Origin: Candidatus Doudnabacteria bacterium RIFCSPHIGHO2_02_FULL_42_25
Lineage (GTDB): Bacteria; Patescibacteriota; Doudnabacteria; UBA920; O2-02-FULL-48-8
DNA: 36,571 nucleotides
Reading direction: 5' to 3'
Assembly: GCA_001777665.1 (NCBI GenBank)
Contig: MFEQ01000006.1
Coordinates: forward strand, 90,309 to 126,879
Made by a program: the position numbers and the translations under genes. A model generated the notes under the pieces. It was not told the origin of the DNA. It was given only the letters and a program-made list of their open reading frames with translations, and searched no databases. Positions 12,985-33,221 of this stretch are shown here, piece by piece; within the stretch, counting starts at the first letter, position 1, and each line of letters opens with the position of its first letter.

Positions 12985-13049
12985 TCTACGAAAGTACGAA
13001 TTCTCGAATTACGAACTGTTCGTAGTTTCGCAATTTCGTATTTCGTAGA
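12985..13049. repeat. TACGAA x4 / TTCGTA x4 modular inverted repeat, copy 1
   Basis: TCTACGAAAGTACGAATTCTCGAATTACGAAC-T-GTTCGTAGTTTCGCAATTTCGTATTTCGTAGA. Confidence 0.85.
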
Positions 13050-13895
13050 TTATTCATGCTCACTCCTTATCTTCCCTCCAAGTGTTCTTAATTCATCCAA
13101 GGCTTTTTTGGCTTCATCTTTTTCAAAAACTTTACTATGCCATTCGTATCGATACTCCATGAAGTCCACACCTTTGCCGGGAATAGTGTGGCAAATAATT
13201 ACTGTGGGTTTTTCATAAATCGCTTTGGCTTGATTGCAAGCATCGATAATTTCGCGGATATTGTGACCATCAATTTCCAGGACATGCCAACCAAATGCCC
13301 TCCATTTATCAGCAAACGGCTCCAGCGGCATGATGTCTTCGGTATGACCGTCAATTTGAATGTTGTTGCGATCGATAAGTCCTGTTAGATTTCGCAGTTT
13401 GTATTTCGATGCAAACATCGCTGCTTCCCAAGTTTGTCCTTCTTCTTGTTCCCCGTCACTCATGACGCAGTAAACTCGCCAGGGCTGTTTTTTTAAAATC
13501 AAACCTGCATAAGCCATGGCTGCTGCTTGCGATAAACCTTGGCCCAGCGGGCCAGAAGAGTTTTCAATCCCAGGTAGAGCTTCATTGTGTGGATGCCCAT
13601 GAAGGCGTGTGCCTAATTTTCGAAGTGTCGCTAATTCACTAGTGGGGAAAAATCCGGCATGTGCCATAGTCGCATACCACACAGGGTTAATATGCCCGCA
13701 AGAAAGTACAAATCTGTCCCGACTCTCCATCTGAGGGTTCTTCGGATCATAGTTCATTACTCCGAAGTAAAGCGCAGTAAATACGTCGGCCATATCCAAA
13801 GGCCCGGCAACATGTCCTGATTTGGCGGAGACAAGCATCCTGATGATGTCTTGTCTGATTTCATTCGCTTTGAGTTCGAGCTGTTCTAAGTTCAT
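13050..13895 (-). CDS. Transketolase N-terminal (TPP-binding) subunit
   Basis: RDRFVLSCGH, LHGHP, GPLGQGLS, SDGEQEEG, DRNNIQIDG. Confidence 0.94.
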   Translation of the reverse strand: MNLEQLELKANEIRQDIIRMLVSAKSGHVAGPLDMADVFTALYFGVMNYDPKNPQMESRDRFVLSCGHINPVWYATMAHAGFFPTSELATLRKLGTRLHGHPHNEALPGIENSSGPLGQGLSQAAAMAYAGLILKKQPWRVYCVMSDGEQEEGQTWEAAMFASKYKLRNLTGLIDRNNIQIDGHTEDIMPLEPFADKWRAFGWHVLEIDGHNIREIIDACNQAKAIYEKPTVIICHTIPGKGVDFMEYRYEWHSKVFEKDEAKKALDELRTLGGKIRSEHE

Positions 13896-13905
13896 AAGGG
13901 GAATA

Positions 13906-14559
13906 TTATAATTCTATATCTTTTCTAAGACTTTCCAAAGCTTCTTGCTCATTCGGGCTTTGTAAAATACTGGAACCAGCCACTATAATATTTGCTCCGG
14001 CTTCAGCCACATCATGCGCAACACCAACTTTCACGCCGCCATCTACAACTATAATTAAAGTTTTAGACAAAGATCTTAATTCCTCAACCTTATCTATTAT
14101 TGAAGGAATAAACTCCCGCCCCTGTGCCCCTGGATGAATTCCCATGACCTGGACCATGTCTACTTTCTGTAAATATTTTCCTAATCGGTGGACCGCTGTT
14201 TCGGGATTGATCGCTATTCCGATCTGAAAACCCAAATTTTTTCCGTGCGCAATGACTTGATCCATATCTGGTTCATCCACTGCTTCATAATGAAATATAA
14301 CTTGCTTGAATCCTATTTCTTTAGCTTTCTCAAAATATTGTTGTGGCATCATGGTCATAAAATGAGCCATGAGAATCAAAGGCGAAGATTTTAGGAAATC
14401 CAATGCATCGGGCATGACAGTGGTTCGATCGACAAACACATCATCCATAAAGTCCACGTGTAGAATCCGAAAATACTGACTTAATCCAAATAGATCTGAA
14501 TACTTTTTTCTGAAATCTGATATATCATTAGTGAGTATCGCTGGTGCTAATTCTGTCAT
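13906..14559 (-). CDS. rpe: Ribulose-phosphate 3-epimerase
   Basis: APAIL, LHVDFMD, HFM, AINPET, MGIHPGAQG, VDGGV, AGSSI. Confidence 0.9.
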   Translation of the reverse strand: MTELAPAILTNDISDFRKKYSDLFGLSQYFRILHVDFMDDVFVDRTTVMPDALDFLKSSPLILMAHFMTMMPQQYFEKAKEIGFKQVIFHYEAVDEPDMDQVIAHGKNLGFQIGIAINPETAVHRLGKYLQKVDMVQVMGIHPGAQGREFIPSIIDKVEELRSLSKTLIIVVDGGVKVGVAHDVAEAGANIIVAGSSILQSPNEQEALESLRKDIEL

Positions 14560-15005
14560 AAATTAATATCGATCTTTCGGACTTTGTTGACTCGTCGCAA
14601 GAACCGTTCTTCTTTTGCAAATGGCGTGGTTAAGAAAGTTTGGACAATATTTTTAGCTAAATCAAGAGTTGTATAATCTGCCGCCAGACACAAAATATTG
14701 ACATCATCGTCATTCCGCGCTGCATGAGCTGATTTTTCGTTCCAGGCCACTGCGGCTCGAGCGCCCTTCGCCTTGTTGGCAACGATACATTCCCCCTGAC
14801 CTGATCGGCAAATCAAAATTCCAAATGAACCATGTTCGTGCCCGACTTTCACTGCCACAGGCCAGGCAAAATCCGGATAATCATCCTCGGGGTCAAACTT
14901 GTCATTTCCAAAATCCTCATAGCTGTGCCCCCATTCTTTCAGCCAATTTTTGATTTCTTCTTTTAATTTGTAACCCCCATGATCAGCTCCTAGGTAAACT
15001 TTCAT
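14556..15005 (-). CDS. rpiB: Ribose-5-phosphate isomerase B
   Basis: GADHGGYKLKE, DDYPDFA, GILICRSGQG, ANK, NILCL. Confidence 0.92.
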   Translation of the reverse strand: MKVYLGADHGGYKLKEEIKNWLKEWGHSYEDFGNDKFDPEDDYPDFAWPVAVKVGHEHGSFGILICRSGQGECIVANKAKGARAAVAWNEKSAHAARNDDDVNILCLAADYTTLDLAKNIVQTFLTTPFAKEERFLRRVNKVRKIDINL

Positions 15006-15778
15006 TTATGTACACTTTCTCGATTAAATTCCGTGACTACTTGCCAGAAATTATCTGAATCCAAACTGGCTGCCCCGACCAATGCACCATCAATTTCCGG
15101 ATATTTAGCATACTCGTGAACGTTATCTTTGTTTACAGTACCACCGTACAACACTCTGATGTTTCTCGCAACTCCTTTGGCCAATTTTTTCTCCAGTAAA
15201 CTATAGATGTGATTAATTAATTCCAAAGCGTGTTCACCTGTTGCAGGATACGAATGCCTGGAAGTGGATATACTCCAAGTCGGTTCATAAACATAAATAA
15301 TATTTTCTAATTCTTTCGGTTCTAAATGTTTCGTAACTTTATTAAATTGTTTGGTCACGATAGCTTTCATTTCGTCCTTCGTTGCATCTTCTTCTGCACC
15401 CAAACATACTATAGGGGTCAGTTTATATTTCAGGGCAGTAAAAATTTTCGCATTGACTATTGAGTCTGTTTCGCCTAAATTTAACCGCCTCTCGGAGTGG
15501 CCCAGTATAACATAATTAGCTTTCCATTGTTTGACTTGAGACGCTGAAATCTCACCCGTCATGGCCCCATGTTCGACCCAACTGATATTTTGGGCTCCTA
15601 GCGAAAGGTGGTGCGTGTAGTGGCTTAATGCTGGCAAATATACAAATGGCGCGCAAATCACTACTTCAACATTATCAACCACTGAAGACATACGGTGCTC
15701 AATCGCAGACACCAAATGCCTAGCCTCTTCCACAGTCTGCGGGTTCATTTTCCAGTTGGCAATAATTAATTTCTTCAT
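15002..15778 (-). CDS. tpiA: Triosephosphate isomerase
   Basis: ANWKMN, GAMTGEIS, LGHSERR, YEPTW, LYGG, DGALVG. Confidence 0.93.
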   Translation of the reverse strand: MKKLIIANWKMNPQTVEEARHLVSAIEHRMSSVVDNVEVVICAPFVYLPALSHYTHHLSLGAQNISWVEHGAMTGEISASQVKQWKANYVILGHSERRLNLGETDSIVNAKIFTALKYKLTPIVCLGAEEDATKDEMKAIVTKQFNKVTKHLEPKELENIIYVYEPTWSISTSRHSYPATGEHALELINHIYSLLEKKLAKGVARNIRVLYGGTVNKDNVHEYAKYPEIDGALVGAASLDSDNFWQVVTEFNRESVHK

Positions 15779-15779
15779 C

Positions 15780-16778
15780 TTATTTCTGCCTAAATATGTC
15801 GGCGGACATTTCGGGCAATACTGTGTTTACGTAGACGTCACTTCCGAGTTCAAATCCACCCCAAACGTTTAATCGAGGCAATATTTCTAGATGCCAATGA
15901 TAGCTTCGCTCGTCATAGCGAGAAAGTAATGAATGCGAAATTGGCAAAGAATGAATGTAGTAATTATATGCTGGATTATTCAGTTTATAGTGAAGCTTCT
16001 GGAGTACAATTTTTAAAACTAAACCCAACGATTTTCTTTCTTTAGCCGTAATTTCCATAAAACTGGCTTGGTGACGTTTCGGGATAATTCGCATCGCGTA
16101 CGGCACTCTAGCGGCAAACGGCGCAAATACCAGAAAGTCTTCATTGTCCAAAATAATTCGTTCCCGATCCGAAATTTCTTTGAGAATCATTTCGCAATAA
16201 ATGCATGCCCCTTCAGATTTAAAAAAAACATAACATCCAGTAACCTCGTCATGTAAATGTTCCGGAACAAAAGGTGTCGCAAAAATTTGTGAATGAGGAT
16301 GAATAAGCGAAGCTCCTCCAGCGAAACCGTGATTTTGCAAGATATGCACATATTCGACTTCGGAATGATTGGATAATTCTGTCATTCGCTCTTGATAGAC
16401 TTTCAAATTTAAATCCATAAGTTCATCAGATAAAAAACCGGTCAAAACATTGTGTGGACGAGTAACGACCACTTCGTGATCTCCAATTCCTTCACGGACT
16501 CGATAAAAGTCCGATCGTTCACGACCACCCGAATGCCCTAGTGCTTCAAACTTATTCAGGATTACTCTCACTTTCCAGTTCTTGCCCTTCGGATGAGCGG
16601 CAACTTCCAAATTAAATTCTTCTTTCCCAGCACAAAACGGACAAGTTATGTCGTGTTCGGGAACGGTTTTTGGATTTGGAGTCGCCGGGGCATGCTTAAA
16701 ATCCTCTGGTCTTGAGGCTCTATTTGGAGCAAATAATACCCAGTGTTGGGAGACGATATCTTGTCGAAATTCAGACAA
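15780..16778 (-). CDS. galT: Galactose-1-phosphate uridylyltransferase family (HIT superfamily)
   Basis: RASRP, CPFC, GASLIHPHSQ, CIYC, YHWHLEILPR, GGFELG; TTG start. Confidence 0.9.
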   Translation of the reverse strand: MSEFRQDIVSQHWVLFAPNRASRPEDFKHAPATPNPKTVPEHDITCPFCAGKEEFNLEVAAHPKGKNWKVRVILNKFEALGHSGGRERSDFYRVREGIGDHEVVVTRPHNVLTGFLSDELMDLNLKVYQERMTELSNHSEVEYVHILQNHGFAGGASLIHPHSQIFATPFVPEHLHDEVTGCYVFFKSEGACIYCEMILKEISDRERIILDNEDFLVFAPFAARVPYAMRIIPKRHQASFMEITAKERKSLGLVLKIVLQKLHYKLNNPAYNYYIHSLPISHSLLSRYDERSYHWHLEILPRLNVWGGFELGSDVYVNTVLPEMSADIFRQK

Positions 16779-16782
16779 ATGT

Positions 16783-17304
16783 TTACTTAGTTATAAAATG
16801 AAATGTTAACAAAACTGGTCGCATCAAATTTTCTGTGCCGTTCACAACATACAATTTCTTGTTGTGCGTTGCCATGATTATGATCTCACTGTGTCCTCCG
16901 CCCAAATCATTTACTAATCGCGTCGCAATAATCCCACCAAGTGTCGTGTTAGTTTCAGATATTATTTTAAGATTTTTTCGGATTCCGACAGATGAACTCG
17001 GATCTGCGACGGTCACCGTGACACCACTGTCTGATAATTCTGGAGGTAGGAATGTCACGCTAGAGGCTTCAGCCTCAATAGCCCAGTCTGCCGGGTACCT
17101 GACTCCAAATCCCAATCTGGAATCGCTGTAACTATGGAAGGAAGAAAAAACACTATCAGCTTCACTGGAAATGTTTAGATCAGAAATCTTGATATAACTA
17201 ATCAAAGCTAAAGCAACGATCAAGGCATAAGCCAGCGCCCAGATCAACCACCGGTTATGATGGATTTTTATTTTATGTAGATGGTATAGTTTTCTTTTTG
17301 CCAT
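16783..17304 (-). CDS. Membrane-anchored PsbP-like hypothetical protein
   Basis: N-terminal TM segment followed by YSDSRLGFGVRYPADW. Confidence 0.7.
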   Translation of the reverse strand: MAKRKLYHLHKIKIHHNRWLIWALAYALIVALALISYIKISDLNISSEADSVFSSFHSYSDSRLGFGVRYPADWAIEAEASSVTFLPPELSDSGVTVTVADPSSSVGIRKNLKIISETNTTLGGIIATRLVNDLGGGHSEIIIMATHNKKLYVVNGTENLMRPVLLTFHFITK

Positions 17305-17311
17305 TTTGTTT

Positions 17312-17327
17312 TCCGCCAGCTGGCGGA
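17312..17327. repeat. Perfect 16-bp palindrome, REP-like
   Basis: TCCGCCAGCTGGCGGA in an AT-rich spacer. Confidence 0.6.
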
Positions 17328-17338
17328 TTAATTAATTA

Positions 17339-17626
17339 TTATGTAAATTTAACACTAATCAAATATAATCCTACAGTCCCTCCTAAAAGAATAATGAAAT
17401 ATGTAAAAATATTGCTTTGGGCTCGATGTAATAATTTGGTCCAGAAATATATAATAAATGATAAAATTGCTAATCCGATCAGGAGACCGGCATTGACTTT
17501 TTCGTCAAAAATAAATGCCAAAAATATGTTAACAAAGAAGTAACCAACTGCAAGCCACACCAGTCTATTTTCATCGATATAGCGGGCGAATGTCGCTAGG
17601 ATGAACAGAAAAAGTATATCTATCAT
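17339..17626 (-). CDS. Small multi-pass membrane protein
   Basis: 3-4 hydrophobic segments; ATGA-type overlap with the ruvX stop region. Confidence 0.7.
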   Translation of the reverse strand: MIDILFLFILATFARYIDENRLVWLAVGYFFVNIFLAFIFDEKVNAGLLIGLAILSFIIYFWTKLLHRAQSNIFTYFIILLGGTVGLYLISVKFT

Positions 17627-18027
17627 TTATTTGTGTCTAAATATTGCTGCAGCATAATTTGGGCTGCGATATTATCTTTAATTGTCCTCTGTTTCTTTTC
17701 TTTCATTCCAGCCTCGTGTAATTTATTCCTTGCTTGAACTGACGAAAACCTTTCATCGACTAATTCAAATTTGCAACTGGTGTACTCCTTTAGGATTCTT
17801 ACAAAATCTTCAACTCGGGTAGCGCTGGCGGCTCGGTCGCCCGATAAATTTTTCGGGTTCCCGATTATGATTTTTTCTACATCTAGATCCGTAATAATTT
17901 TTTTAATTTCAGATACTGCGACTTTTGCATCAATCACTTTATCTAAAGGAAATGCGATTGTAGCTTCTGGATCAGAAATAGCAGCACCGATTCTTACATC
18001 ACCCCAATCTAACGCTAAAATTCTCAT
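17623..18027 (-). CDS. ruvX: RuvX/YqgF-family nuclease
   Basis: ILALDWGDVRIGAAISD, IIIGNP, VDERFSS, DNIAAQIMLQ. Confidence 0.93.
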   Translation of the reverse strand: MRILALDWGDVRIGAAISDPEATIAFPLDKVIDAKVAVSEIKKIITDLDVEKIIIGNPKNLSGDRAASATRVEDFVRILKEYTSCKFELVDERFSSVQARNKLHEAGMKEKKQRTIKDNIAAQIMLQQYLDTNK

Positions 18028-19226
18028 TTAGACTCACCCAATGTTACCGTGATTGTTTTTTCTTCACCACGGCTCAAAATCTTCATTGTGACCTGATCAT
18101 CAGGGTTAAAATTCTTTAATTCAGCAGCTAAACTGTTTTCCTGCTCGATCTTTTTGCCGTTGATTTCCAAAATAATGTCATTCTCGCGAAGCCCGGCTTT
18201 ATCAGCAGCTGAACCGGGTATGACTGCTGGGTTGGAAGGAGTGCCTCCAGATACAATTAAAGCTCCATAATCGACTTCTAAATTATTTTCTTCCTTCAGA
18301 GTCTGATTAATCAAAACATAGCGGATTCCTAAGAAAGGTTTAACAATTCGTCCAAATTTTCGAAAACTATCTAAGTCTCGTTTCGCATCATTAATCGGTA
18401 TCGCAAATCCCAAGAGCTGGCCTTGAGAATCAATGGCAGTATTAATCCCAATCACAGAGCCGCCGATATCTAATAATGGTCCACCAGAATTCCCTGGATT
18501 AATGGCAGCATCTGTTTGAATTACTCCTTCTAGCTGTTCTGCAGTACTGCCTCCACTCGCTGTTATAGACCTCCCAATCCCAGAAACCACTCCAGTCGTA
18601 ACTGTATTTTGGTATTGGCCCAGTGAATTACCAATCGCAATAACTGATTGGCCGATTTCTAAGTTGGCGGAATCTCCGAGTATTAAAGTCGGCAACCCGC
18701 TGGCGTCAATCTTGACTAAAGCAATATCATTTACCGGATCCCTGGAAAGAACTGTCGCGTCGTATTTTTTTCCATCAGTGGTTAGAACTGTGTACGTTGC
18801 TGTCGTATCTTCGACCACATGTTTGTTGGTCATGATCAATCCGTCATCAGTTATAATAAATCCGGTACCACCTCCGATTTCTTGAACGTCGGGTATCGGC
18901 CCAAAATTGAACGGCGAAGTAGAATAACCTGGAATTTTATTTAAATCTTTCGAGACTATGATCGAAACCACCGCTGGTGAAGATTTATTTACGACATCGA
19001 TCACTGCGGAGCTCTCGTCGACAGACACGGTTCGTACATCGCCCAAAGATGTTATAGAAAGTCCTCTCTCACCGAGGAAAGCTGATCCAAAAACCGCGCC
19101 TGCTATCCCAAAAAGAAAACTCAATAAAGCCACCACGCCCAATAATTTCAGGTGGTTCTGGTCTGATTTATCCGAAACTTCCGAAAAGCTCGGAAGTAAA
19201 CTTTTATCCTCGTTAGAATTGCTCAT
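18024..19226 (-). CDS. htrA: HtrA/DegP-family serine protease with one PDZ domain
   Basis: GTGFII, TNKHVV, DIAL, IQTDAAINPGNSGGPL, C-terminal PDZ; N-terminal TM. Confidence 0.93.
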   Translation of the reverse strand: MSNSNEDKSLLPSFSEVSDKSDQNHLKLLGVVALLSFLFGIAGAVFGSAFLGERGLSITSLGDVRTVSVDESSAVIDVVNKSSPAVVSIIVSKDLNKIPGYSTSPFNFGPIPDVQEIGGGTGFIITDDGLIMTNKHVVEDTTATYTVLTTDGKKYDATVLSRDPVNDIALVKIDASGLPTLILGDSANLEIGQSVIAIGNSLGQYQNTVTTGVVSGIGRSITASGGSTAEQLEGVIQTDAAINPGNSGGPLLDIGGSVIGINTAIDSQGQLLGFAIPINDAKRDLDSFRKFGRIVKPFLGIRYVLINQTLKEENNLEVDYGALIVSGGTPSNPAVIPGSAADKAGLRENDIILEINGKKIEQENSLAAELKNFNPDDQVTMKILSRGEEKTITVTLGESK

Positions 19227-19248
19227 CGTGCCTATATTATACCATATT

Positions 19249-20007: not shown

Positions 20008-20071
20008 ATGGTCTTTAATATTTTATATGTATTTCCATGCCTTAGCAACCCTAGATAAGGCCGTTCCTTTT

Positions 20072-20100
20072 TTGACACTCTTGTCAAGGCTCGATATAAT
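20072..20100 (+). promoter_or_regulatory. Consensus sigma70 promoter, probably giving a leaderless transcript
   Basis: TTGACA(20072)-N17-TATAAT(20095); ATG 6 nt after the -10; TTGACA-CTCT-TGTCAA inverted repeat over the -35. Confidence 0.8.
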
Positions 20101-20106
20101 TTATAT

Positions 20107-20346: not shown

Positions 20347-20353
20347 CCATACG

Positions 20354-24676: not shown

Positions 24677-24760
24677 TTTACTAAATACTAATTGTTACTA
24701 ATTTACTAATCGGTAAAGCTTTAGCTATTCGTATATTCGTACCGATTCGTACTTCGTAAA
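24677..24760. repeat. Modular inverted repeat copy 2 (TACTAA x4 / TTCGTA x4)
   Basis: Fills the rplF-rplR spacer; 77/84 identical to copy 4. Confidence 0.9.
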
Positions 24761-25316: not shown

Positions 25317-25320
25317 AGTT

Positions 25321-25719: not shown

Positions 25720-25723
25720 ATAT

Positions 25724-25918: not shown

Positions 25919-25921
25919 AGA

Positions 25922-26461: not shown

Positions 26462-26465
26462 ATGA

Positions 26466-26780
26466 TTACATTACCTTTCCGCATTTCTTACACTTGCGCA
26501 AATTACCATTCTCTGTGACTTCATGAGCGACTCTGGTTGGTTTACCACAATTCGGACAGAGCAAAATTACATTCGAGACATTCATCGGAGACGGAAGTTC
26601 CAGTCGTTGACCTTTTTCACCTTTTCGCTTCGCTTTCGAAAATCTAACATGAACATTCAATCCTTCGATGGATAATCGGGCGTTTTTTGGAAACACTTCC
26701 AAAACTTTTCCGGACTTTCCTTTTTCTTTTCCGGATAGAACTTTGACTGTATCGCCTTTTTTAATGTTTAATGAAGCCAT
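26466..26780 (-). CDS. rplX: 50S ribosomal protein L24
   Basis: IKKGDTVKVLSGKEKGK; C-terminal CPNC...CKKC. Confidence 0.96.
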   Translation of the reverse strand: MASLNIKKGDTVKVLSGKEKGKSGKVLEVFPKNARLSIEGLNVHVRFSKAKRKGEKGQRLELPSPMNVSNVILLCPNCGKPTRVAHEVTENGNLRKCKKCGKVM

Positions 26781-26801
26781 ATGCTTTAGTTAATTAAACT
26801 T

Positions 26802-26883
26802 TCTACGAAATTACGAATTTTTACGAAAGTACGAACTGAACCGAGTTCTTTCGTATTTTCGTAACTTTTTCGTAGTTCGTAGA
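26802..26883. repeat. Modular inverted repeat copy 3
   Basis: TCTACGAA..x4 loop TTCGTA..x4 GA, starting immediately after the rplN stop. Confidence 0.88.
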
Positions 26884-27255
26884 TCATACTACTTCCTCTG
26901 CTAAAGATATAATCTTGGTAAACCCCAAGTCGCGAAGTTCACGGGGCATCGGACCAAAAATACGGGTGCCTCTTGGGTCTTGGCTGTCTTTAGTTACCAA
27001 TACTGCGGCATTATCATCAAATCGAATATATGAACCATCGGCTCTGCGGACTTCTTTGCGCGTACGGACGATAACTGCATAAACTTTATCACCTTTTTTG
27101 ACTTGGCCTTTCGGGCTGGCAATCTTCACTGAAGCGGAGATGACATCGCCCAATCTGGCCCAGCGTCGTTTGTTCTTTCCATTCACAGAAAAAGCTGCGA
27201 TCTCTTTCGCACCGGTATTGTCAGCAACTATTAATCTGGTACGTAATTGAATCAT
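26884..27255 (-). CDS. rplN: 50S ribosomal protein L14
   Basis: [25 protein letters not shown]. Confidence 0.98.
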
Positions 27256-27256
27256 A

Positions 27257-27520
27257 TTAGACTACTCTCCAGTTAACTGTTTTACTGTAAGGTTTAACTT
27301 CTTCGATCGTAACTTTCTGGCCAACTGTATATACTTTAGCATCGCCATCGGTGTGAGCTGCATATTTTTTAAACACCTTGTAGCGCTTGTGATATTTCGG
27401 ATGGACTTTTACTGATTCAACTTTAACAACGATGGTTTGAGTCATCTTGTTTGAAGTTACAAATCCTGTAAGTTGTCGCTTTACCCCGTTAGATTTTACA
27501 GTGTTATTATCGTTTGTCAT
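27257..27520 (-). CDS. rpsQ: 30S ribosomal protein S17
   Basis: [28 protein letters not shown]. Confidence 0.95.
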
Positions 27521-27524
27521 AAAA

Positions 27525-27572
27525 TTTACTTTCCCGCGTTGATTTTTATAAAAATCTAACGGGGTTTACTTT
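27525..27572. repeat. 32-bp REP-like hairpin flanked by an 8-bp direct repeat
   Basis: TTTACTTT-[CCCGCGTTGATTTTTATAAAAATCTAACGGGG]-TTTACTTT. Confidence 0.7.
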
Positions 27573-27579
27573 ATCCATA

Positions 27580-27765
27580 TTATTTCTTCTTACCGATAAA
27601 TGTTAAAATTCTTGCTATATCTTGTCTGATGTTCTTCAGCATGTGATTATTTTTCACTTCCCGTGAATGAATCTTGAATGTCAGATCGCGAACTTGTTCA
27701 CGCAATACACCCAGTTGTCTGGTCAATTCGTTCGGTGTCATGTTTTCTAATTCTTTCATCTTCAT
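27580..27765 (-). CDS. rpmC: 50S ribosomal protein L29
   Basis: ELENMTPNEL...KNIRQDIARILT; operon position. Confidence 0.93.
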   Translation of the reverse strand: MKMKELENMTPNELTRQLGVLREQVRDLTFKIHSREVKNNHMLKNIRQDIARILTFIGKKK

Positions 27766-27769
27766 AAAC

Positions 27770-27853
27770 TTTACTAATTACTAATTATTACTAATTTACT
27801 AATCGTTAAAGCATTGGCTATTCGTATATTCGTACTGATTCGTATTTCGTAAA
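27770..27853. repeat. Modular inverted repeat copy 4 (TACTAA x4 / TTCGTA x4)
   Basis: Fills the rplP-rpmC spacer. Confidence 0.9.
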
Positions 27854-28267
27854 TCACTTCTGCTCCTTTGTCACGAATCGAGTTTTGACCGGCAACTTGT
27901 GAGATGCCAACCGCATAGCTTCTTCAGCCTGAACCGGGGTTACGCCATCCATTTCAAATAAAATTCGTCCTTTTTGAACTACAGCAACAAAGTGATCTAC
28001 AGCACCTTTTCCAGCTCCCATCGGTGATTCATTACCATGAGCAGTAATTGGTTTATCCGGGAAAATTCGAATCCAAATTTTACCACCACGTTGGATGTAT
28101 CGAGTCATAGCGCGCCTAGCTGCTTCGATCTGACGCGAAGTCACCCAGCTGTTTTCCAGCGATTTCAGTCCAAAGCTGCCGAAGGCGACAAAATTTCCAG
28201 ACATGGCCTTGCCTTTAGATGATCCGCGATGATGCTTTCGATGTTTAACTTTCTTTGGAATAAGCAT
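27854..28267 (-). CDS. rplP: 50S ribosomal protein L16
   Basis: [25 protein letters not shown]. Confidence 0.98.
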
Positions 28268-28276
28268 AAATAATCC

Positions 28277-28936
28277 TTAAACTTTAAGCTTTAACTTGTT
28301 GCCTTCAAAAACTTCGCCTTTGTTGATCCAAACTTTAATACCGATCGTGCCGTATGTAGTAAATGCTGTAACTCTAGCAAAATCAATATTCGCTCTCAAA
28401 GTATGCAAAGGAAGCTTACCTTTGAACAATCTTTCGGATCGGGCAATTTCAGCTCCACCTAATCGGCCTGAACATTCGATACGAACACCAATCGCTCCGG
28501 ATTCCATAACTTTCTCAATCGAAGCTTTCATCGCACGTCGGAAAGCAATACGTCGTTCAATCTGGTCTGCAATGTCTTGGGCTATAACTTGGGCTTGAAG
28601 ATTTACATCCTTGATTTCTTCGATATTGATCTTCATTTCCAATTTATCAAGTTTCAAATGCTTCAAAATCTTCTTTTTCAACTCTTCGATCCCGCCACCA
28701 CCTTTTCCGATAATCATTCCAGGTTTCGTGGTTTTGATATTTATATAAAGTCTGTTGCTGTATCGTTCGATATCGACGCGAACCAATCCGGACTTTTTCA
28801 AAGCATTACCAAGGAAAGCTCGAATTTTCGTATCTTCAGCAAGAAGAGTTGCAAAACCAGTCTTGGTCAGCCATCGTGACTTCCAAGTGTCTGTAATTTT
28901 CAGTCTTAAACTATTTGCGTTTACTTTATGTCCCAT
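28277..28936 (-). CDS. rpsC: 30S ribosomal protein S3
   Basis: PGMIIGKGG, SGRLGGAEIAR, PLHTLRANID. Confidence 0.98.
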   Translation of the reverse strand: MGHKVNANSLRLKITDTWKSRWLTKTGFATLLAEDTKIRAFLGNALKKSGLVRVDIERYSNRLYINIKTTKPGMIIGKGGGGIEELKKKILKHLKLDKLEMKINIEEIKDVNLQAQVIAQDIADQIERRIAFRRAMKASIEKVMESGAIGVRIECSGRLGGAEIARSERLFKGKLPLHTLRANIDFARVTAFTTYGTIGIKVWINKGEVFEGNKLKLKV

Positions 28937-28940
28937 AAAA

Positions 28941-29486
28941 TTATTGACCCGATCTCCTGTTAAATAATCGACGTTTCAAACTAATCTTTTGCTGCTTCAT
29001 CTTTTCATCAGATTTCGGAGCTTGTTTCGGGACATTCTGCTTTTCTGACGCTTGACCAGCTTCAGGAAGAGCTACGGCTTTTGGTCGAAGTGAGAAAACT
29101 GATCTAGATTTTTTCTTGGATTTACCAGCTCTGGATTCTAATACGACACTAATATGACTAGTTCTCTTTCGTTCTACGAATGCTCGTCCTTGTGCTCTTG
29201 GCGCATATCTTTTATAAACTGGTCCGCCATCTACAGTTAGAGATTTAATAAACATATCATCTTTATTCATATTGAAATTATGCACGCCATTGGCAATAGC
29301 AGAATTGATCGCTTTGCTTAGTGGAAGAGCAGCGTTCTTCGAAGAAAATCTAAGCTGTTCCAATGCATCAGAAACATGCATTTTTCTAACCAAATCAGCG
29401 ACAAGTCGAAGCTTTCGCGGAGAGACATGAATGTATCTTGCGAACGCTTTAACCTCGGTATGCAGTTTGGGATTCTTTTCAGCCAT
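28941..29486 (-). CDS. rplV: 50S ribosomal protein L22 with a C-terminal extension
   Basis: SPRKLRLVADLVR, PRAQGRA, RTSHI; about 60-aa basic tail. Confidence 0.96.
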   Translation of the reverse strand: MAEKNPKLHTEVKAFARYIHVSPRKLRLVADLVRKMHVSDALEQLRFSSKNAALPLSKAINSAIANGVHNFNMNKDDMFIKSLTVDGGPVYKRYAPRAQGRAFVERKRTSHISVVLESRAGKSKKKSRSVFSLRPKAVALPEAGQASEKQNVPKQAPKSDEKMKQQKISLKRRLFNRRSGQ

Positions 29487-29494
29487 AAATTTAT

Positions 29495-29573
29495 CTACGA
29501 ACTTACGAAATTTTTACGAAAATACGAAAGAAAGCTATTTTCGTATGTTCGTATTCTTTTCGTACTTTCGTAG
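29495..29573. repeat. Modular inverted repeat copy 5
   Basis: CTACGAA..x4 loop TTCGTA..x4 G, in the rpsS-rplV spacer. Confidence 0.88.
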
Positions 29574-29576
29574 CCA

Positions 29577-29912
29577 TTACTTTTTGGGCTCCTCTTTAGC
29601 AGCAGTTGTGGCACGTCTTTCAGCGTCAGCAGCTGCCAATGCTTCATCTTTTGCCATCTTACCACCATGTCTAGTAAATTTCCGAGTTGGAGCAAACTCA
29701 CCGAGTTTGTGGCCAACCATGTTTTCTGAAGGAATAACTGTAATAAAATTCTTACCCTGGTGGACGAGGAAAGTCATGCCAACCATTTCAGGAAAAATCG
29801 TAGAATCACGTGACCAAGTTTTAATTTGAACTTTAGAACCTGGTTTGTTCTTCTGAACTTTCTCTAATAATTTTGGATCGATAAAAGGTCCTTTTTTCAG
29901 TGATCGTGACAT
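29577..29912 (-). CDS. rpsS: 30S ribosomal protein S19
   Basis: [26 protein letters not shown]. Confidence 0.98.
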
Positions 29913-29913
29913 A

Positions 29914-30747
29914 TTATTTGCTTCGTCTCTTAACTATAAATCTAGAACTTGCTCTCTTTGGGTTACGGGTGCGGACACCAAGTGCGTGTTTACCCCAAGG
30001 AGTTTTCGGATATTTAAGCCCAATTGGGTTATGACCTTCTCCACCACCATGAGGGTGATCCACAGGGTTCATAGCTTTACCGCGTACAGATGGACGAATT
30101 CCCATGTGTCGAGTGCGTCCAGCTTTACCGATTCTAACATACATCCAGTCGACATTTGAAACTTGCCCGAGTGTAGCATAAGCATTGCCAGCAACTTTTC
30201 GAATTTCGCCTGATGGCATTTTCAATAAAACGTGCTCGCCTTCACTAGCGGAAATAATAGCGTAGTTCCCTGCGGCTCTAGCGATTTGACCACCACGTCC
30301 AGCCAAAATTTCTATACTGTGGACATTGGTTCCTACCGGGATATTTTTGAGCATCATACGATTCCCGACTTTCACTTCAGTTCGAGGAGCTGTGAGTAAA
30401 ATAGTTCCGACTTTCACTCCATCTGGAGCGAGGATGTATCGCTTCTCACCATCACGGTATGCAAGCAGGGAAATAAAAGCACTTCGTCCTGGATCATATT
30501 CGAGAGTCTGAACTTTTGCAGGAATATTCAACTTTTCACGCATAAAATCAATCATCCGGACTTTTTGCTTGTGTCCACCACCTTGGTGTCTGGTGGTAAT
30601 CAAACCGCGATTGTTTCGGCCGCCGGTTTTTTTCTTAGACACAATCAAAGCATTCGGAGCTTTGACTCGTTTTCTTAGAACAGAATAATCCGTAACTGAA
30701 TGAATTCTGCGTCCTGGTGAAGTTGGTTTGTAGATTTTGATAGCCAT
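29914..30747 (-). CDS. rplB: 50S ribosomal protein L2
   Basis: [29 protein letters not shown]. Confidence 0.98.
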
Positions 30748-30748
30748 A

Positions 30749-31180
30749 CTAGATTCCTTCGGCTAAGCCGGAAATTTTTTCACCTTGTTTTAATGTCACG
30801 ATGGCCTTCTTCCAATCTTGAGTGCGGCCCATGACTCGTCCCTGTCGGCGGGATTTACCTTGAACATTCGCGATATTTACTTTAACGACATGGACATCAT
30901 AAACTTTTTCTATAGCTTTCTTAACTTCAATTTTATTCGCGTTGCGATCAACTCGGAATACATATCTGCCGGTAGTCGAAAACATATTAGTCTTTTCCGA
31001 CAAATGATGGTTTTTCAAAATTCTGTGTGCTGAACCGGTGTCCTCTTTCAGTACAACCGGCTTGCCCTCCGTAGCTTTAGCGGAGGAGGGCTCTTGGACC
31101 ATATCCAAGACATTCTCTTCTTTCTTCTTCTTACTCCCCTTGTCCCCTTTATTCCCTTTTATTCTATCGAGAAGTCCCAT
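30749..31180 (-). CDS. rplW: 50S ribosomal protein L23 with an N-terminal extension
   Basis: SEKT, ANKIEVKKAIE, WKKAIVTL. Confidence 0.95.
   Translation of the reverse strand: MGLLDRIKGNKGDKGSKKKKEENVLDMVQEPSSAKATEGKPVVLKEDTGSAHRILKNHHLSEKTNMFSTTGRYVFRVDRNANKIEVKKAIEKVYDVHVVKVNIANVQGKSRRQGRVMGRTQDWKKAIVTLKQGEKISGLAEGI
31061..31091. repeat. In-frame REP-like palindrome within rplW
   Basis: CTTGCCCTCCGTAGCTTTAGCGGAGGAGGGC; stem CCTCCG/CGGAGG; encodes PSSAKATEGK. Confidence 0.55.
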
Positions 31181-31808
31181 ATGTTTTTTCTATTACAGTT
31201 AAGGCATCTTTCAAAACCACCACATCGTACTTCATCAAATCAACAACATTCAACTGATTTGCGTATAAAATTTTCACATTGGCAAGGTTTCTGACAGCGC
31301 GTTCCAATTCAGCATTTTTCGCATCCATCACTACCAAATATTTTTTACCCAAACCAGCTTTGGTCGCGAAATCATTCAATCTTTTCGAAATTTCTTTAGT
31401 CTTCGCAGTTTTATCCAAATTTTCGAGCACAACTAATTTCTTATCATTTAATTTATCAGTCAAAATAGTAAACAAAGCTTTACGCCATGCAGAGCGGTTC
31501 ATTTTCAAAGACCAATTTCGATCTGATCGTGGTCCAAATGTAATTCCACCGTGTCGCCAAATTGGAGATCGGATAGAACCAGCTCGAGCGCGTCCAGTAC
31601 CTTTTTGCTTCCAAGGCTTTCGGCCACTACCTGCGACTTCACCTCGGTTTTTGGTATGAGCTAGTGCTGATCTTGCGTTGGATAGTTGGATTCGAACAGC
31701 CGAATGCACCAAATTCGCGTCGATTTTTTCCACGCCAAAAATCTTTGGATTGAGATCCAAATCTGTAACTTTGTCACCTGTTTGGTTATAGACGACGACT
31801 TTGGGCAT
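31164..31808 (-). CDS. rplD: 50S ribosomal protein L4
   Basis: TKNRGEVAGSGRKPWKQKGTGRARAGS, FGPR. Confidence 0.98.
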   Translation of the reverse strand: MPKVVVYNQTGDKVTDLDLNPKIFGVEKIDANLVHSAVRIQLSNARSALAHTKNRGEVAGSGRKPWKQKGTGRARAGSIRSPIWRHGGITFGPRSDRNWSLKMNRSAWRKALFTILTDKLNDKKLVVLENLDKTAKTKEISKRLNDFATKAGLGKKYLVVMDAKNAELERAVRNLANVKILYANQLNVVDLMKYDVVVLKDALTVIEKTYGTSR

Positions 31809-31811
31809 ATG

Positions 31812-32471
31812 TTATTTAATTAACCCTGGATAATCGGTGAAAATTCCATCGACACCGATCTTTTTCATTCGTTTTAATTCCTTCTCGGAATTGACTGTCC
31901 AGACGTAGATATTTTTCGCAAACTTGCGTAAATATTTAACAACCTGATCAGTCACGAACAAATTTCTTGGATGGATCGAATACAACTGCAAATTTCTAGT
32001 AAGCTGCATCATAATCGGCAAGAAATAAAATTTTCTCACCGGAATAATTAATCCCAGATGGACTTTTCCATCCAAAGCTCTGATTTTCTTGAGAACCCCC
32101 GGATAAAATGAGGAAATCAGAACCCTGTGCGGAAAATTTTTAATTTTGTTTAGAACTTTTTGCTCGATGCCTTGGACTTTGATTTCGATATTAACATCAA
32201 CGTCGATGGCGGCTAAGGCTTCGTCGAGAGTTGGAATCAATCGATACCGAGAAATGGCTCGCAATTCTGCCAAAGTACTTTTGGCAATGGCTTGTCCATC
32301 ATCGAACAATCTTTTCAATGTTCGGTCGTGGAAAAGTACTAGTTCTCCATCTCTTGTTACCCGTATATCGAGCTCGACCATTTTCACCCCATGCTCAATT
32401 GCTTTTTTCAAAGAACGGATTGTGTTCTCCGGTTCAAACCCTGATGCTCCTCTGTGCCCGATTACTAGCAT
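31812..32471 (-). CDS. Glycerophosphodiester phosphodiesterase (GDPD/GlpQ-UgpQ family)
   Basis: IGHRGASG..PENT, ELDI, HDRTL, NIEIK, VWTVN, GVDGIFTDYP. Confidence 0.93.
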   Translation of the reverse strand: MLVIGHRGASGFEPENTIRSLKKAIEHGVKMVELDIRVTRDGELVLFHDRTLKRLFDDGQAIAKSTLAELRAISRYRLIPTLDEALAAIDVDVNIEIKVQGIEQKVLNKIKNFPHRVLISSFYPGVLKKIRALDGKVHLGLIIPVRKFYFLPIMMQLTRNLQLYSIHPRNLFVTDQVVKYLRKFAKNIYVWTVNSEKELKRMKKIGVDGIFTDYPGLIK

Positions 32472-32479
32472 AAATCCGG

Positions 32480-33055
32480 TTATTTACGCATCGCCTGAAT
32501 CTTAACTATTCCACCATTTGCGCCTGGAACTGCTCCTTTTATTGCTATTAAATTCCGTGCTGCGTCGACATCCACTACTTCCAAATTCGTCACTGTTCTA
32601 GTGCCGCCCATACGTCCGGCCATGTGCAAACCTTTTCTGACGTGCTGTGGGAAACGGCCTCCGATAGCTCCGACTGCGCGAGGGTGATCATGTCCGTGAG
32701 ATGCTGGCGCTCCGTGGAAGTGCCATCGTTTAACTGGGCCTGCAAACCCCTTTCCTTTCATCTCTGCGGTAACTTTAACCTTATCACCAATAATAAACGT
32801 ATCAGCTTTGATCTCATCACCAGTGCTGTAGCTATCTTTATCATCAGTTCGGAATTCAACTAACTTTTTAAATTTATTGCCGGTTTTCTTTTTACCAAAT
32901 CCAACCTGAACAGCAGTGTATTTATCTTTGTCCATGGTTCGAACCAATGTCACTTTAACTGGACCCGCCTTCAAAATAGTTACCGGAACTACGATACCTT
33001 TGTCGGTAAACATCTGAGACATCTTCAATTTTTGAGCAATTATGAATTTGGCCAT
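32480..33055 (-). CDS. rplC: 50S ribosomal protein L3
   Basis: VPVTIL, KGKGFAGPVKR, MAGRMG, KGAVPG. Confidence 0.97.
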   Translation of the reverse strand: MAKFIIAQKLKMSQMFTDKGIVVPVTILKAGPVKVTLVRTMDKDKYTAVQVGFGKKKTGNKFKKLVEFRTDDKDSYSTGDEIKADTFIIGDKVKVTAEMKGKGFAGPVKRWHFHGAPASHGHDHPRAVGAIGGRFPQHVRKGLHMAGRMGGTRTVTNLEVVDVDAARNLIAIKGAVPGANGGIVKIQAMRK

Positions 33056-33057
33056 GA

Positions 33058-33221
33058 CTTTACTAATTACGAATTTTTACCAATATACGAATGGGTTTTT
33101 AAAAAACCGACCAGATCCCCTTTAATAAAGAAACCTGGTCGGTTCTTCAAGATTGGCGATATCCTGGGGGATCTTGACCCAATCTATTCGTATATTCGTA
33201 CTGATTAGTAATTCGTAAAGT
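33058..33221. repeat. Modular inverted repeat copy 6 enclosing a two-hairpin structured segment
   Basis: Arms 33058-33092 and 33186-33221; inner stems 33105-33144 and 33150-33185. Confidence 0.85.

What the first reader, a model, noticed from the sequence alone, without database searches (positions are those of the whole stretch)
12985..33221. Dispersed family of modular [TACnAA]x4-loop-[TTnGTA]x4 hairpin elements at stop/start junctions of operons
Seen: six copies at 12985-13049 (tktN/tktC), 24677-24760 (rplF/rplR), 26802-26883 (rplN/rplX), 27770-27853 (rplP/rpmC), 29495-29573 (rpsS/rplV) and 33058-33221 (rpsJ/rplC). Every arm has four hexamers, mostly with mirrored spacing (7/10/8 then 8/10/7 nt in copies 2, 4 and 6). 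There are two subfamilies, ending TTTAC...GTAAA and (T)CTAC...GTAG(A). Copies 2 and 4 are 77/84 identical, and all 7 differences lie outside the hexamers. Inference: a non-autonomous mobile element (MITE/REP-like) whose ends are iterated protein-binding sites, targeting gene junctions in highly expressed operons. No mobilising enzyme is encoded in this window. I recall similar short-period repeats flanking four-helix-bundle/GxxExxY genes elsewhere, but could not verify this here.
Basis: partly seen in the sequence, partly recalled or inferred. Interest (0 to 1): 0.85.

Follow-up and report, generated by a model that had tools for sequence, protein, structure and literature searches.

The report
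Gene-less copies of small nuclease-carrying mobile element
The six repeats are gene-less copies of a small, apparently undescribed selfish DNA element whose complete copies carry a tiny nuclease gene between two mirrored rows of four short "words", and which has settled in the gaps between genes of a very small bacterial genome.

Summary
All six elements sit at the stated coordinates, and the same architecture occurs at 39 loci in this 849-kb genome; a mirrored-pattern control found none. Two genomic copies hold a 131-aa GxxExxY / PDDEXK_3 nuclease gene exactly where the short copies have a loop. In relatives the same ribosomal-protein junctions are empty, or hold this element at another junction, or hold unrelated hairpin elements. 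Two pairs of copies at unrelated loci are identical. So these are insertions of mobile or once-mobile DNA, not a conserved regulatory motif.

The conserved unit is the word, not the helix. At an orthologous secA-leader copy in three genera, synonymous sites are saturated but the words are kept while the spacers change. Copies 2 and 4 do not fold better than shuffles. Central-base variants are not compensated between arms.

In 80 loci from Patescibacteria and Bacteroidota that encode this nuclease clade, 59 have the same TACGA-type words on both sides (control 0). Other nuclease clades carry other words.

Best reading: the short copies are MITE-like, gene-less members of an element whose nuclease recognises the words. 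The mobility mechanism is untested. No paper describing it was found.

The parts
12985..13049 (-). Copy 1, short type (3-nt loop), between the tktN stop (13050) and the tktC start (12978). Each arm has 3 exact words plus 1 variant.
   Evidence: RNA fold z = -5.9. 61/61 identical to G000:C6:301460. tkt halves confirmed by Pfam.
24677..24760 (-). Copy 2, subfamily B, at the rplF/rplR junction. Read in the direction of the genes, the arms are 4 x TACGAA then 4 x TTAGTA; the word centres are mismatched.
   Evidence: No significant fold, z = -0.28. The orthologous junction is 4 nt long in G002 and holds an unrelated hairpin in G001.
26802..26883 (-). Copy 3, type A, at the rplN/rplX junction. 4+4 words, loop GAACTCGGTTCAG.
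   Evidence: z = -5.6. The junction is 8 nt in G002; G008 has a TACGAA element at the same junction.
26781..26801 (-). Possible 3' tail of copy 3 (in gene direction AAGTTTAATTAACTAAAGCAT) lying just before the rplX ATG. Similar tails follow several other copies.
   Evidence: Seen by eye in the listings. Not tested statistically; low confidence.
27770..27853 (-). Copy 4, subfamily B, at the rplP/rpmC junction.
   Evidence: 77/84 identical to copy 2. z = -0.28. The junction is 7-22 nt in G003 and G002.
29495..29573 (-). Copy 5, type A, at the rpsS/rplV junction.
   Evidence: z = -6.1. Its 3' arm is identical to that of the G008 rplN/rplX copy, judged by eye.
33058..33092 (-). Copy 6, subfamily B arm next to the rplC start. 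This is the 3' arm in gene direction.
33093..33185 (-). Terminator-like RNA between the two arms of copy 6. It is conserved at the rpsJ/rplC junction in relatives, so it is not part of the repeat family.
   Evidence: No Rfam family matched.
33186..33221 (-). Copy 6, subfamily B arm next to the rpsJ stop. This is the 5' arm in gene direction and is close to the 5' arm of copy 4.

Best explanation
The six repeats are gene-less members of a family of very small selfish DNA elements.

A complete element is about 465 bp. It consists of an arm of four TACnAA words arranged as two pairs (spacers about 2, 4-5 and 2 nt), then a 131-codon gene for a minimal PD-(D/E)XK nuclease (GxxExxY protein, TIGR04256 / PF13366) that begins and ends within a few bases of the arms, then the mirrored arm of four TTnGTA words. 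The short copies (60-90 bp) keep the two arms and have a 3-20 nt loop in place of the gene.

Shown here:
- The family is dispersed and its sites differ between relatives.
- It occupies gaps between genes, usually filling them from the stop codon to just before the next start codon.
- It mostly lies in one orientation relative to the flanking genes.
- The words are under purifying selection independently of base pairing.
- Nuclease clades and word types go together across phyla.

Inferred:
- The words are the cis sites recognised by the cognate nuclease, probably with several subunits per arm.
- The nuclease makes the DNA breaks that let the element spread, either by moving both complete and gene-less copies (the MITE model) or by copying itself into gene-less copies (the homing model, listed as a rival).
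- Gene-less copies persist at intercistronic gaps because that is nearly the only non-coding DNA in a genome that is about 91% coding, and because this organism depends little on Shine-Dalgarno sites that an insertion could displace.
For: Family size: 39 loci. Of these, 27 are compact two-armed copies, 2 carry the ORF, 1 surrounds a conserved RNA, 4 carry a nested 30-nt palindrome and 5 are partial.

The ORF in the filled copies: G000:C4:6268-6732 and G000:C6:299769-300232 hold it between the arms. It scores TIGR04256 at 108.8 bits (cut-off 35) and PF13366 at 105.5 bits. E36, D75 and K87 are invariant in 22 homologues, and position 85 is E or D throughout. The AF2 model has pLDDT 91. Its nearest solved folds are Cas4, lambda exonuclease, the Hjc resolvase and the tRNA splicing endonuclease.

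Mobility:
- Identical copies at unrelated loci: 61/61 and 90/90.
- The four ribosomal-protein junctions are 4, 8, 22 and 44 nt in G002, against 88, 103, 88 and 90 nt here.
- G001 has the element at rpsN/rpsH instead.
- The pattern was found in 14 of 41 genomes of the order, patchily.
- The secA leader carries the filled copy in G000, G001 and G018, is empty in G002 and G008, and holds other hairpins in G007 and G024.

Selection on words rather than on the helix:
- Between the secA-leader copies, dN is 0.06-0.15 while dS is saturated. By eye, 11 of 12 5'-arm words are exact, while the spacers differ in sequence and length.
- In subfamily B, 15 of 16 word centres are mismatched and the copies do not fold.
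- In 33 filled elements of other genomes, only 5 of 32 variant word pairs are complementary, no more than in within-element shuffles.

Nuclease and word go together:
- Among relatives, the nuclease clades carry TACnAA, GCnAAT, ATCCGAA, ACACGAA, GCGGAT or CACTGA words (clades judged by eye from percent identities, no tree built).
- 59 of 80 loci of the TACnAA clade, from Patescibacteria and Bacteroidota at about 50-80% protein identity, have at least 3 words upstream and at least 3 reverse-complement words downstream. Mirror control: 0 of 80.
- Genomes with a TACnAA-flanked nuclease gene more often have 5 or more pattern hits: 5/9 against 3/32, Fisher P = 0.007. The genomes are related, so this is not an independent sample.

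Placement: the stop codon is within 9 nt of the element in 20 of 31 cases and the next start within 25 nt in 27 of 31. Orientation matches the flanking genes in 26 and opposes them in 5.
Against: - No binding, cleavage or transposition was tested.
- A 131-aa PD-(D/E)XK nuclease is not a known transposase.
- No target-site duplication or target motif could be recognised (flanks, by eye).
- G032 (18 pattern hits) has no GxxExxY gene at all, and G008 (11 hits) has only an unrelated in-frame copy in lepA. These assemblies are 98% and 96% complete. So the short copies can persist, and perhaps spread, without a resident cognate nuclease.
- The second filled copy in this genome appears frameshifted at an A-run (reading).
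- An unrelated four-helix-bundle protein (PF05635) sits in the same kind of word-flanked setting. So the ORF may be cargo rather than the engine.
- In copy 6 the arms flank ancestral sequence, which simple insertion does not explain.
- DNA contigs from four public metagenome runs gave no clean empty-site joint.
- Gene calls are my own crude longest-ORF calls, so distances to start codons are approximate.
Confidence: 0.62

Rival explanations
1. Homing model. The short word-hairpins are an independent repeat family, spread by some other route. The GxxExxY gene is a homing-endonuclease-like parasite of them: it recognises the paired word arrays, cuts in or near the loop, and is copied in from a filled copy by repair, using the arms as homology.
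For: The ORF sits exactly where the loop is and abuts both arms. Each nuclease clade goes with one word type. Elements exist in genomes without the nuclease. The middle spacers of the resident secA-leader copy differ from those of the abundant short type A copies, so the short copies are not recent deletion products of it (by eye).
Against: It leaves unexplained how the short copies reach new loci. The same word family is tied to the nuclease clade across phyla, which is easier to understand if the two travel together. The filled secA-leader copy is an insertion into a site that is simply empty in G002 and G008, not a site that holds a short copy there.
Confidence: 0.2
2. REP/REPIN-like repeats mobilised by the genome's IS200-like Y1 (RAYT-type) transposase.
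For: One Y1_Tnp gene is present at G000:C3:58410-59021. The elements are hairpin-like, lack an evident target duplication and end in ...GTAG(A).
Against: That gene is flanked by its own, different palindrome (ACGAGGGTGACCCTCGT), which has 8 loci in the genome. The TACGAA-rich relatives G008, G032 and G037 have no Y1_Tnp match. The TACnAA arms flank GxxExxY genes instead.
Confidence: 0.04
3. Host regulatory RNA structures (processing sites for RNase III or similar, attenuators, or devices for translational coupling) that are conserved for operon control and are not mobile DNA.
For: They lie at stop/start junctions in one orientation relative to transcription, 26:5. 23S rRNA intervening sequences with inverted-repeat stems are cut by RNase III (PMC4990558, passages read). 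A Shine-Dalgarno-like motif lies just before the element in 9 of 31 cases, against a 10-17% background.
Against: Orthologous junctions are empty in relatives, and the element sits at other junctions there. Copies 2 and 4 do not fold. There is no U-tract after the stems. No Rfam match. Identical copies lie at unrelated genes. Secondary effects on mRNA are not excluded.
Confidence: 0.08
4. Arrays that arise in place by slippage or hairpin-templated repair at many sites, without any copying between loci.
For: One-sided word arrays exist (G001 rpsJ/rplC, G002 rplV/rpsC, G000:C6:45913). Many different words occur. In copy 6 the arms flank ancestral RNA.
Against: Copies at different loci share spacers, loops and ends, up to 100% identity. 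The same word with the same 4+4 layout recurs across phyla next to one protein clade.
Confidence: 0.05

Closest known systems
23S rRNA intervening sequences (IVS) with an ORF, as in Leptospira and Coxiella (S23p / four-helix-bundle protein)
   Same: A small element, roughly 430-760 nt in the known cases. A short ORF of unknown function is bracketed by terminal inverted repeats that can form a stem. Distribution is sporadic and horizontal transfer is suspected. The element is suspected to be mobile by an unknown mechanism (PMC4990558, abstract and passages read). In this genome a PF05635 '23S rRNA IVS protein' gene is also flanked by iterated words.
   Different: The present copies are not in 23S rRNA. 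Two lie in the spacer just upstream of its 5' end; the rest lie between protein genes. The ORF is a PD-(D/E)XK nuclease, not a four-helix bundle. The arms are arrays of iterated words rather than a plain stem. Abundant gene-less copies exist. None of 20 Bacteroidota loci tested was flanked by rRNA. RNase III excision could not be tested.
MITEs (miniature inverted-repeat transposable elements)
   Same: Short, gene-less, with terminal inverted repeats, many copies. They share their ends with a few longer copies that encode an enzyme.
   Different: No target-site duplication was found. The longer copy encodes no known transposase family. The inverted ends are four iterated 6-nt words with free spacers and a free central base.
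REP / REPIN elements with RAYT transposases
   Same: Dispersed intergenic palindromic repeats in bacteria. They sit between co-directional genes and are associated with one domesticated-looking single-copy gene. (The REPIN paper PMC3116915 was seen as a search listing only; the rest is recalled.)
   Different: The associated gene is a PD-(D/E)XK nuclease that lies inside the element, not a Y1 HUH transposase flanked by REPs. The genome's own RAYT-like gene has a separate palindrome family.
Transposon ends with iterated subterminal binding sites (Tn7, Mu, CACTA/En-Spm) - recalled, not from a call
   Same: Each end carries several copies of a short protein-binding word, in inverted orientation at the two ends.
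   Different: Those words are longer and bind a DDE transposase. Here the whole end is 30 nt and the candidate binder is a 15-kDa nuclease.
Small dispersed repeats and heptamer tandem repeats of filamentous cyanobacteria (Elhai et al. 2008) - recalled; the paper itself was not retrieved (one search lists only papers that cite the term)
   Same: Very short mobile repeats that nest inside hairpin-forming tandem short-period repeats. Here a 30-nt GC-rich palindrome is nested inside four of the elements.
   Different: Different phylum and different sequences. No link to a GxxExxY gene is known to me for those repeats.

Membership tests
GxxExxY protein (TIGR04256) / PDDEXK_3 (PF13366): the ORF of the filled copies | Score above the curated cut-off over the full-length profile | tested here: met
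   108.8 bits against a cut-off of 35, profile 1-115 of 116. PF13366 at 105.5 bits against 22. Five such genes in the genome.
PD-(D/E)XK nuclease superfamily | Catalytic E ... D ... (D/E)xK residues on an alpha-beta-beta-beta-alpha-beta core | tested here: met
   E36, D75 and K87 are invariant, and position 85 is E or D, in 22 sequences. The AF2 model has pLDDT 91 with helix-helix-strand-strand-strand-helix-strand-strand order. Foldseek hits are Cas4, lambda exonuclease, Hjc and EndA, E 1e-4 to 5e-3. Activity was not tested.
MITE | Short, gene-less, terminal inverted repeats, multiple dispersed copies | tested here: met
MITE | Target-site duplication flanking each copy | tested here: not met
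   No consistent direct repeat in the flanks of the 39 loci, including the identical recent copies (by eye). The inverted repeat merely extends to TC...GA or TT...AA.
MITE | Ends shared with an autonomous element that encodes a transposase | tested here: inconclusive
   The ends are shared with ORF-bearing copies, but the ORF is a nuclease of unknown function, not a recognised transposase. No reverse transcriptase in the genome.
REP/REPIN-RAYT system | The repeats flank the RAYT (Y1_Tnp) gene and co-occur with it | tested here: not met
   The RAYT-like gene is flanked by a different palindrome. G008, G032 and G037 have the elements but no Y1_Tnp match.
23S rRNA intervening sequence | Inserted in 23S rRNA (helix 25 or 45) | tested here: not met
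   The 23S gene is at G000:C1:1-3656. No TACnAA element or GxxExxY match lies inside it. Its large insertion holds a LAGLIDADG-like ORF. Two elements lie upstream of the 23S 5' end, at C1:3713-3790 and C1:4125-4201.
23S rRNA intervening sequence | Small ORF bracketed by inverted repeats that form a stem | tested here: met
   True of the filled copies.
23S rRNA intervening sequence | Excision from the transcript by RNase III | not testable with these tools
   No RNA run holds the region.
Any Rfam family | Covariance-model match at the gathering score | tested here: not met
   0 matches in the window. Only chance-level hits at E 0.27-0.92.
Intrinsic terminator | G+C-rich stem followed by a U-run | tested here: not met
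   The stems are A+T-rich and are followed by GATAA..., not by T-runs. Only the conserved RNA inside copy 6 has this form.

The most novel reading that the evidence does not exclude
GxxExxY nucleases, and in parallel the four-helix-bundle '23S IVS' proteins, are the engines of a widespread and undescribed class of minimal mobile elements.

In this class a roughly 15-kDa protein recognises two inverted arrays of four short words. Word and protein co-diversify into many specificities. Gene-less arrays spread as the smallest known non-autonomous partners. The classical ORF-bearing 23S rRNA intervening sequences would then be one special landing site of the same class.

The fixed orientation relative to transcription would mean that insertion or retention involves the transcript or one DNA strand.
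Probability: 0.3. Interest if true: 0.85.

Novelty: new variant of a known kind. Interest (0 to 1): 0.7.

Why it matters
How the ORF-bearing intervening sequences of 23S rRNA move, and what their small proteins do, has been open since the early 1990s; PMC4990558 says their function and origin remain unclear. PDDEXK_3 is listed with function 'Unknown' in the 2012 survey of the superfamily (PMC3424549).

This genome and its relatives supply what an experiment needs:
- an intact nuclease gene under purifying selection;
- its likely cis sites, defined to the base as TACnAA in two pairs per arm;
- natural gene-less substrates;
- natural empty sites;
- sister nuclease clades with different words, which can serve as specificity controls.

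It also shows that streamlined Patescibacteria genomes of 0.8 Mb tolerate dozens of such insertions inside their most conserved operons. That matters for annotating their operons, for assembly (public contigs break at these repeats), and for ideas about translation initiation without Shine-Dalgarno sites.

Tried and rejected
- Split ribosome-binding site (the hairpin brings an upstream Shine-Dalgarno motif back next to the start codon). At the ribosomal-protein junctions an SD-like motif does lie just before the element. Genome-wide, however, only 131 of 788 genes have a strict SD motif against 78 of 788 background windows, and only 9 of 31 elements are preceded by one. Kept as a minor possibility only.
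- A '2-kb filled copy' at G000:C4:125849-127921. It is two separate elements.
- Solo arms as independent units. Most are full elements interrupted by a nested palindrome or by partial deletions. Two true one-armed copies remain.
- Reverse-transcriptase-mediated spread. No RVT_1 match in the genome.
- Expression and processing. No RNA holder is listed for the region.
- Population polymorphism. Contigs of runs X9, X12, X13 and X14 break at the elements and show cross-matches from other copies, but no clean joint across an empty site.
- Homodimer prediction for the nuclease. No verdict.
- PDB sequence search with the nuclease. 0 hits at E up to 1.
- A 23S rRNA context for 20 Bacteroidota loci. 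None found.
- Earlier findings of this scan.
- Literature. 'GxxExxY' occurs in 3 papers, in passing only. 'PDDEXK_3' occurs in 1, with function unknown. '23S rRNA' + 'intervening sequence' + 'four helix bundle' gives 1 unrelated genome paper. 'Miniature inverted-repeat' + 'Patescibacteria' gives 2 unrelated papers. 'rRNA-intervening sequence protein' gives 5 passing mentions. 'Small dispersed repeat' + cyanobacteria gives no description of such elements. The CPR rRNA-insertion paper PMC11270868 was seen only as a listing; my query of its text failed on a malformed term and was not repeated. Subscription journals, database family descriptions and supplements were not searchable.
- A derivation of the short copies' loops from the ends of the ORF. 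The resemblance (GGGT...TAAC, CTAGTTCGTA) is too weak to claim (by eye).

Full report
**The genome.** The window is G000:C6:90309-126879 of an 849-kb, 8-contig, 42% G+C assembly that is 98% complete. Relatives fetched by protein similarity carry record titles such as 'Candidatus Doudnabacteria' and 'Patescibacteria group'. The genes around the finding are on the minus strand. They are a split transketolase and the S10-spc ribosomal protein cluster.

- Copies 2-6 have 4+4 exact hexamers. Copy 1 has 3+3 plus one variant word per arm.
- Copies 2 and 4 are 77/84 identical, with all differences outside the hexamers.
- The triple-hexamer pattern occurs 38+40 times in the genome, against 0+0 for the backwards control.
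- A word-agnostic detector of inverted arrays of iterated 5-mers finds 22 loci against 0 for a mirror control. Twenty of the 22 belong to this family.
- With looser criteria I listed 39 loci: 27 compact two-armed copies, 2 with an ORF, 1 around a conserved RNA (window copy 6), 4 carrying a nested 30-nt palindrome, and 5 partial or one-armed.

**'Hairpin' is only partly right.** On the sense strand as RNA, copies 1, 3 and 5 fold at z = -5.6 to -6.1. Their stems are 6-8 bp blocks separated by internal loops, because the spacers between words mostly do not pair. Copies 2 and 4 fold no better than shuffles: z = -0.28, and 71-78 of 200 shuffles fold as well. In this subfamily (ends TTTAC...GTAAA) the centre of the word is mismatched between the arms in 15 of 16 word pairs. 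In the other type 54 of 56 are matched.

G000:C4:6268-6732 and G000:C6:299769-300232 have the same arms about 400 bp apart, with an ORF co-directional with the neighbouring genes.
- The ORF is a GxxExxY protein (TIGR04256, 108.8 bits; PF13366 PDDEXK_3, 105.5 bits).
- It starts within about 0-10 nt of the last 5' word, and its stop codon abuts or overlaps the first 3' word.
- The genome has five GxxExxY genes and one PF05635 four-helix-bundle gene. Each is flanked by iterated words of its own kind.
- The C4 copy lies between a conserved promoter-like TATAAT box and the start of secA.
- The C6 copy seems to have lost its start through a frameshift in an A-run (my reading).

**The protein looks like an active minimal nuclease.** In 22 homologues E36, D75 and K87 are invariant, and position 85 is E or D throughout. 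The AlphaFold model is confident (pLDDT 91, pTM 0.83). Its nearest solved folds are Cas4 SSO0001 (E 1e-4), lambda exonuclease, the archaeal Holliday-junction resolvase Hjc (rmsd 3.6-4.8 A over about 100 columns) and tRNA splicing endonucleases. No PDB chain matches by sequence.

**Evidence that the elements are insertions.**
1. The junctions rplF/rplR, rplN/rplX, rplP/rpmC and rpsS/rplV are 88, 103, 88 and 90 nt here. In G002 they are 4, 8, 22 and 44 nt, and they are similarly short in G003 and G032.
2. G001 has a TACGAA element at rpsN/rpsH, a junction that is 4 nt here. G008 has one at rplN/rplX, and its 3' arm equals that of the window's rpsS/rplV copy.
3. In G001, an unrelated hairpin lies between the stop and start codons at the same rplF/rplR junction. 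G001 and G008 have 9 and 12 enlarged junctions in this operon, holding several unrelated repeat families and, at rplB/rpsS, an extra ORF.
4. Within this genome, two pairs of copies at unrelated loci are identical: 61/61 and 90/90.
5. The pattern occurs in 14 of 41 genomes of the order, patchily across genera and families.
6. The filled secA-leader copy is present in G000, G001 and G018. The same leader is simply short in G002 and G008 and holds other hairpins in G007 and G024.

**The conserved unit is the word.** Between the three orthologous secA-leader copies, dN is 0.06-0.15 while synonymous sites are saturated. By eye, 11 of 12 5'-arm hexamers are still exact, whereas the spacers differ in sequence and even in length (AG/GA/CA; ATAT/AGTAG/ATTAT; AA/AA/AG). 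The layout is two word pairs per arm.

Across 33 filled elements from other genomes with 4+4 exact words, only 5 of 32 word pairs with a variant central base are complementary. The total number of complementary pairs (105 of 132) does not exceed within-element shuffles (mean 106.5). So the central base is free and is not compensated. This speaks against selection for a helix and for recognition of the word itself.

**Word type follows nuclease clade.** Among 33 loci of this genome and 40 relatives, nuclease clades (judged by eye from percent identities, no tree built) carry TACnAA, (T)GCnAAT, ATCCGAA-type, ACACGAA, GCGGAT or CACTGA words (flanks judged by eye, no formal count). For the TACnAA clade, a scan of one genome per species returned 80 loci from Patescibacteria and Bacteroidota MAGs at 48-82% protein identity. 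Of these, 59 have at least 3 copies of a 5-mer upstream and at least 3 of its reverse complement downstream, nearly always TACGA, ACGAA or CGAAT. The mirror-word control gives 0 of 80. Non-coding sequence that survives at this protein divergence and across phyla must be functionally tied to the gene.

**Placement.**
- 31 of the 39 loci lie between co-directional genes. The background share of co-directional neighbours is 72%, so this is not a special preference.
- The upstream stop is within 9 nt in 20 of 31 cases, and the downstream start within 25 nt in 27 of 31 (my own crude gene calls).
- The ribosomal-protein block holds 5 copies against 0.8 expected by junction count (P = 0.0013).
- Orientation agrees with the flanking genes in 26 cases and opposes them in 5 (P = 2e-4). 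Because gene direction and replication direction are probably linked, I cannot tell RNA-level selection from strand-specific insertion.
- Strict Shine-Dalgarno motifs precede only 17% of genes, against 10% background. So an insertion next to a start codon probably costs little here.

**Candidate mobilising enzymes.**
- There is no reverse transcriptase.
- There is one IS200-like Y1 (RAYT-type) gene, but it is flanked by its own palindrome, which has 8 loci. The element-rich relatives G008, G032 and G037 lack any Y1 match.
- Genomes with a TACnAA-flanked nuclease gene more often have 5 or more pattern hits: 5/9 against 3/32, P = 0.007, and the genomes are related.
- However, G032 (18 hits) has no GxxExxY gene, and G008 (11 hits) has only the lepA-embedded one. 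Dependence on a resident nuclease is therefore not shown.

**What remains unexplained.**
- In copy 6 the arms lie on both sides of a roughly 93-nt terminator-like RNA that is present at the rpsJ/rplC junction in G001, G002, G003 and G008.
- Subfamily B has a systematic central mismatch.
- One-sided arrays exist.
- An unrelated four-helix-bundle protein occupies the same kind of setting.
- No target duplication was seen.

**Comparison with what is known.** Rfam has no such family. The papers I could search hold only passing mentions of GxxExxY or PDDEXK_3, with function unknown. The closest described things are the ORF-bearing 23S rRNA intervening sequences, which are bounded by inverted repeats, cut out by RNase III, and suspected but never shown to be mobile (PMC4990558). 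MITEs and REPINs are the other comparators.

The present family works like a MITE with a longer partner. It fails the MITE tests for target duplication and for a known transposase. It fails the REPIN test for RAYT association, and the IVS test for location. I therefore file it as a new variant of the small non-autonomous inverted-repeat elements, tied to a nuclease family of unknown function. The bolder reading is given in the novel case.

Noticed in passing
window 31812-32471 (minus strand): A glycerophosphodiester phosphodiesterase gene (PF03009, 150 bits) sits inside the S10 operon between rplC and rplD. A homologue is at the same place in G001, G003 and G008 but not in G002 or G032.
   Followed up: partly
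window 33093-33185: A conserved structured RNA lies between rpsJ and rplC: a long stem followed by a U-run, like an attenuator. It is shared with G001, G002, G003 and G008. No Rfam match.
   Followed up: partly
window 7862-7891; also G000:C4:125885, C6:10115, C6:176717, C4:127838 and about 10 more loci: A second dispersed family: a 30-nt G+C-rich palindrome (CCCGCCTGCCA..GGCAGG type). About 15 loci, some with longer inserts. Four are nested inside TACGAA elements, in both orientations and at two different positions.
   Followed up: partly
window 9697-9713; G000:C3:58388-59054: An IS200-like Y1 (RAYT-type) gene is flanked by two copies of the palindrome ACGAGGGTGACCCTCGT, next to a tRNA-like stretch. 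There are 8 loci of this palindrome genome-wide, one of them in the window.
   Followed up: partly
G000:C6:19036-21261 (L039 36-2261, minus strand): A GxxExxY domain is inserted in frame in the G domain of a LepA-like GTPase (741-aa ORF). Its 5' word array is translated as QTNAD-like repeats. The same fusion is in G008 and G011.
   Followed up: partly
G000:C1:1-4201: The 23S rRNA gene spans 3656 nt for model positions 1-2464 and holds a LAGLIDADG-like ORF at C1:558-1136. The spacer upstream of its 5' end carries two TACnAA elements and a hairpin made of ATCGGA/TCTGA words with G-T wobble positions.
   Followed up: partly
L001 4491-5515, L003 8961-9403, L004 9430-9983: Relatives G001, G003 and G008 have an extra ORF with a lipoprotein-like signal sequence between rplB and rpsS. 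In the window these two genes are 1 nt apart.
   Followed up: no
L001 and L004, several r-protein junctions: At least three other repeat families fill ribosomal-protein junctions in relatives: a roughly 185-nt element with CCTCTCCC...GGGAGAGG stems, an AACCCCCTCACCAGAACGAGC... hairpin, and TTGAAT-word hairpins. Some are near-identical at two junctions of one genome.
   Followed up: no
G000:C8:18314-18403 and G000:C4:146305-146679; G000:C3:80575-80665: Further word-array hairpins with other words (AGTAA; CTTAT; GCTAAT/ACTAAT). The last resembles the arms around the GxxExxY genes L029-L031 of relatives.
   Followed up: no
L023-L025, L028, G000:C5:24632-24865: In one nuclease clade the ORF runs on into the 3' word array, which is then translated as SDxSD-type repeats at the C-terminus.
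   Followed up: no
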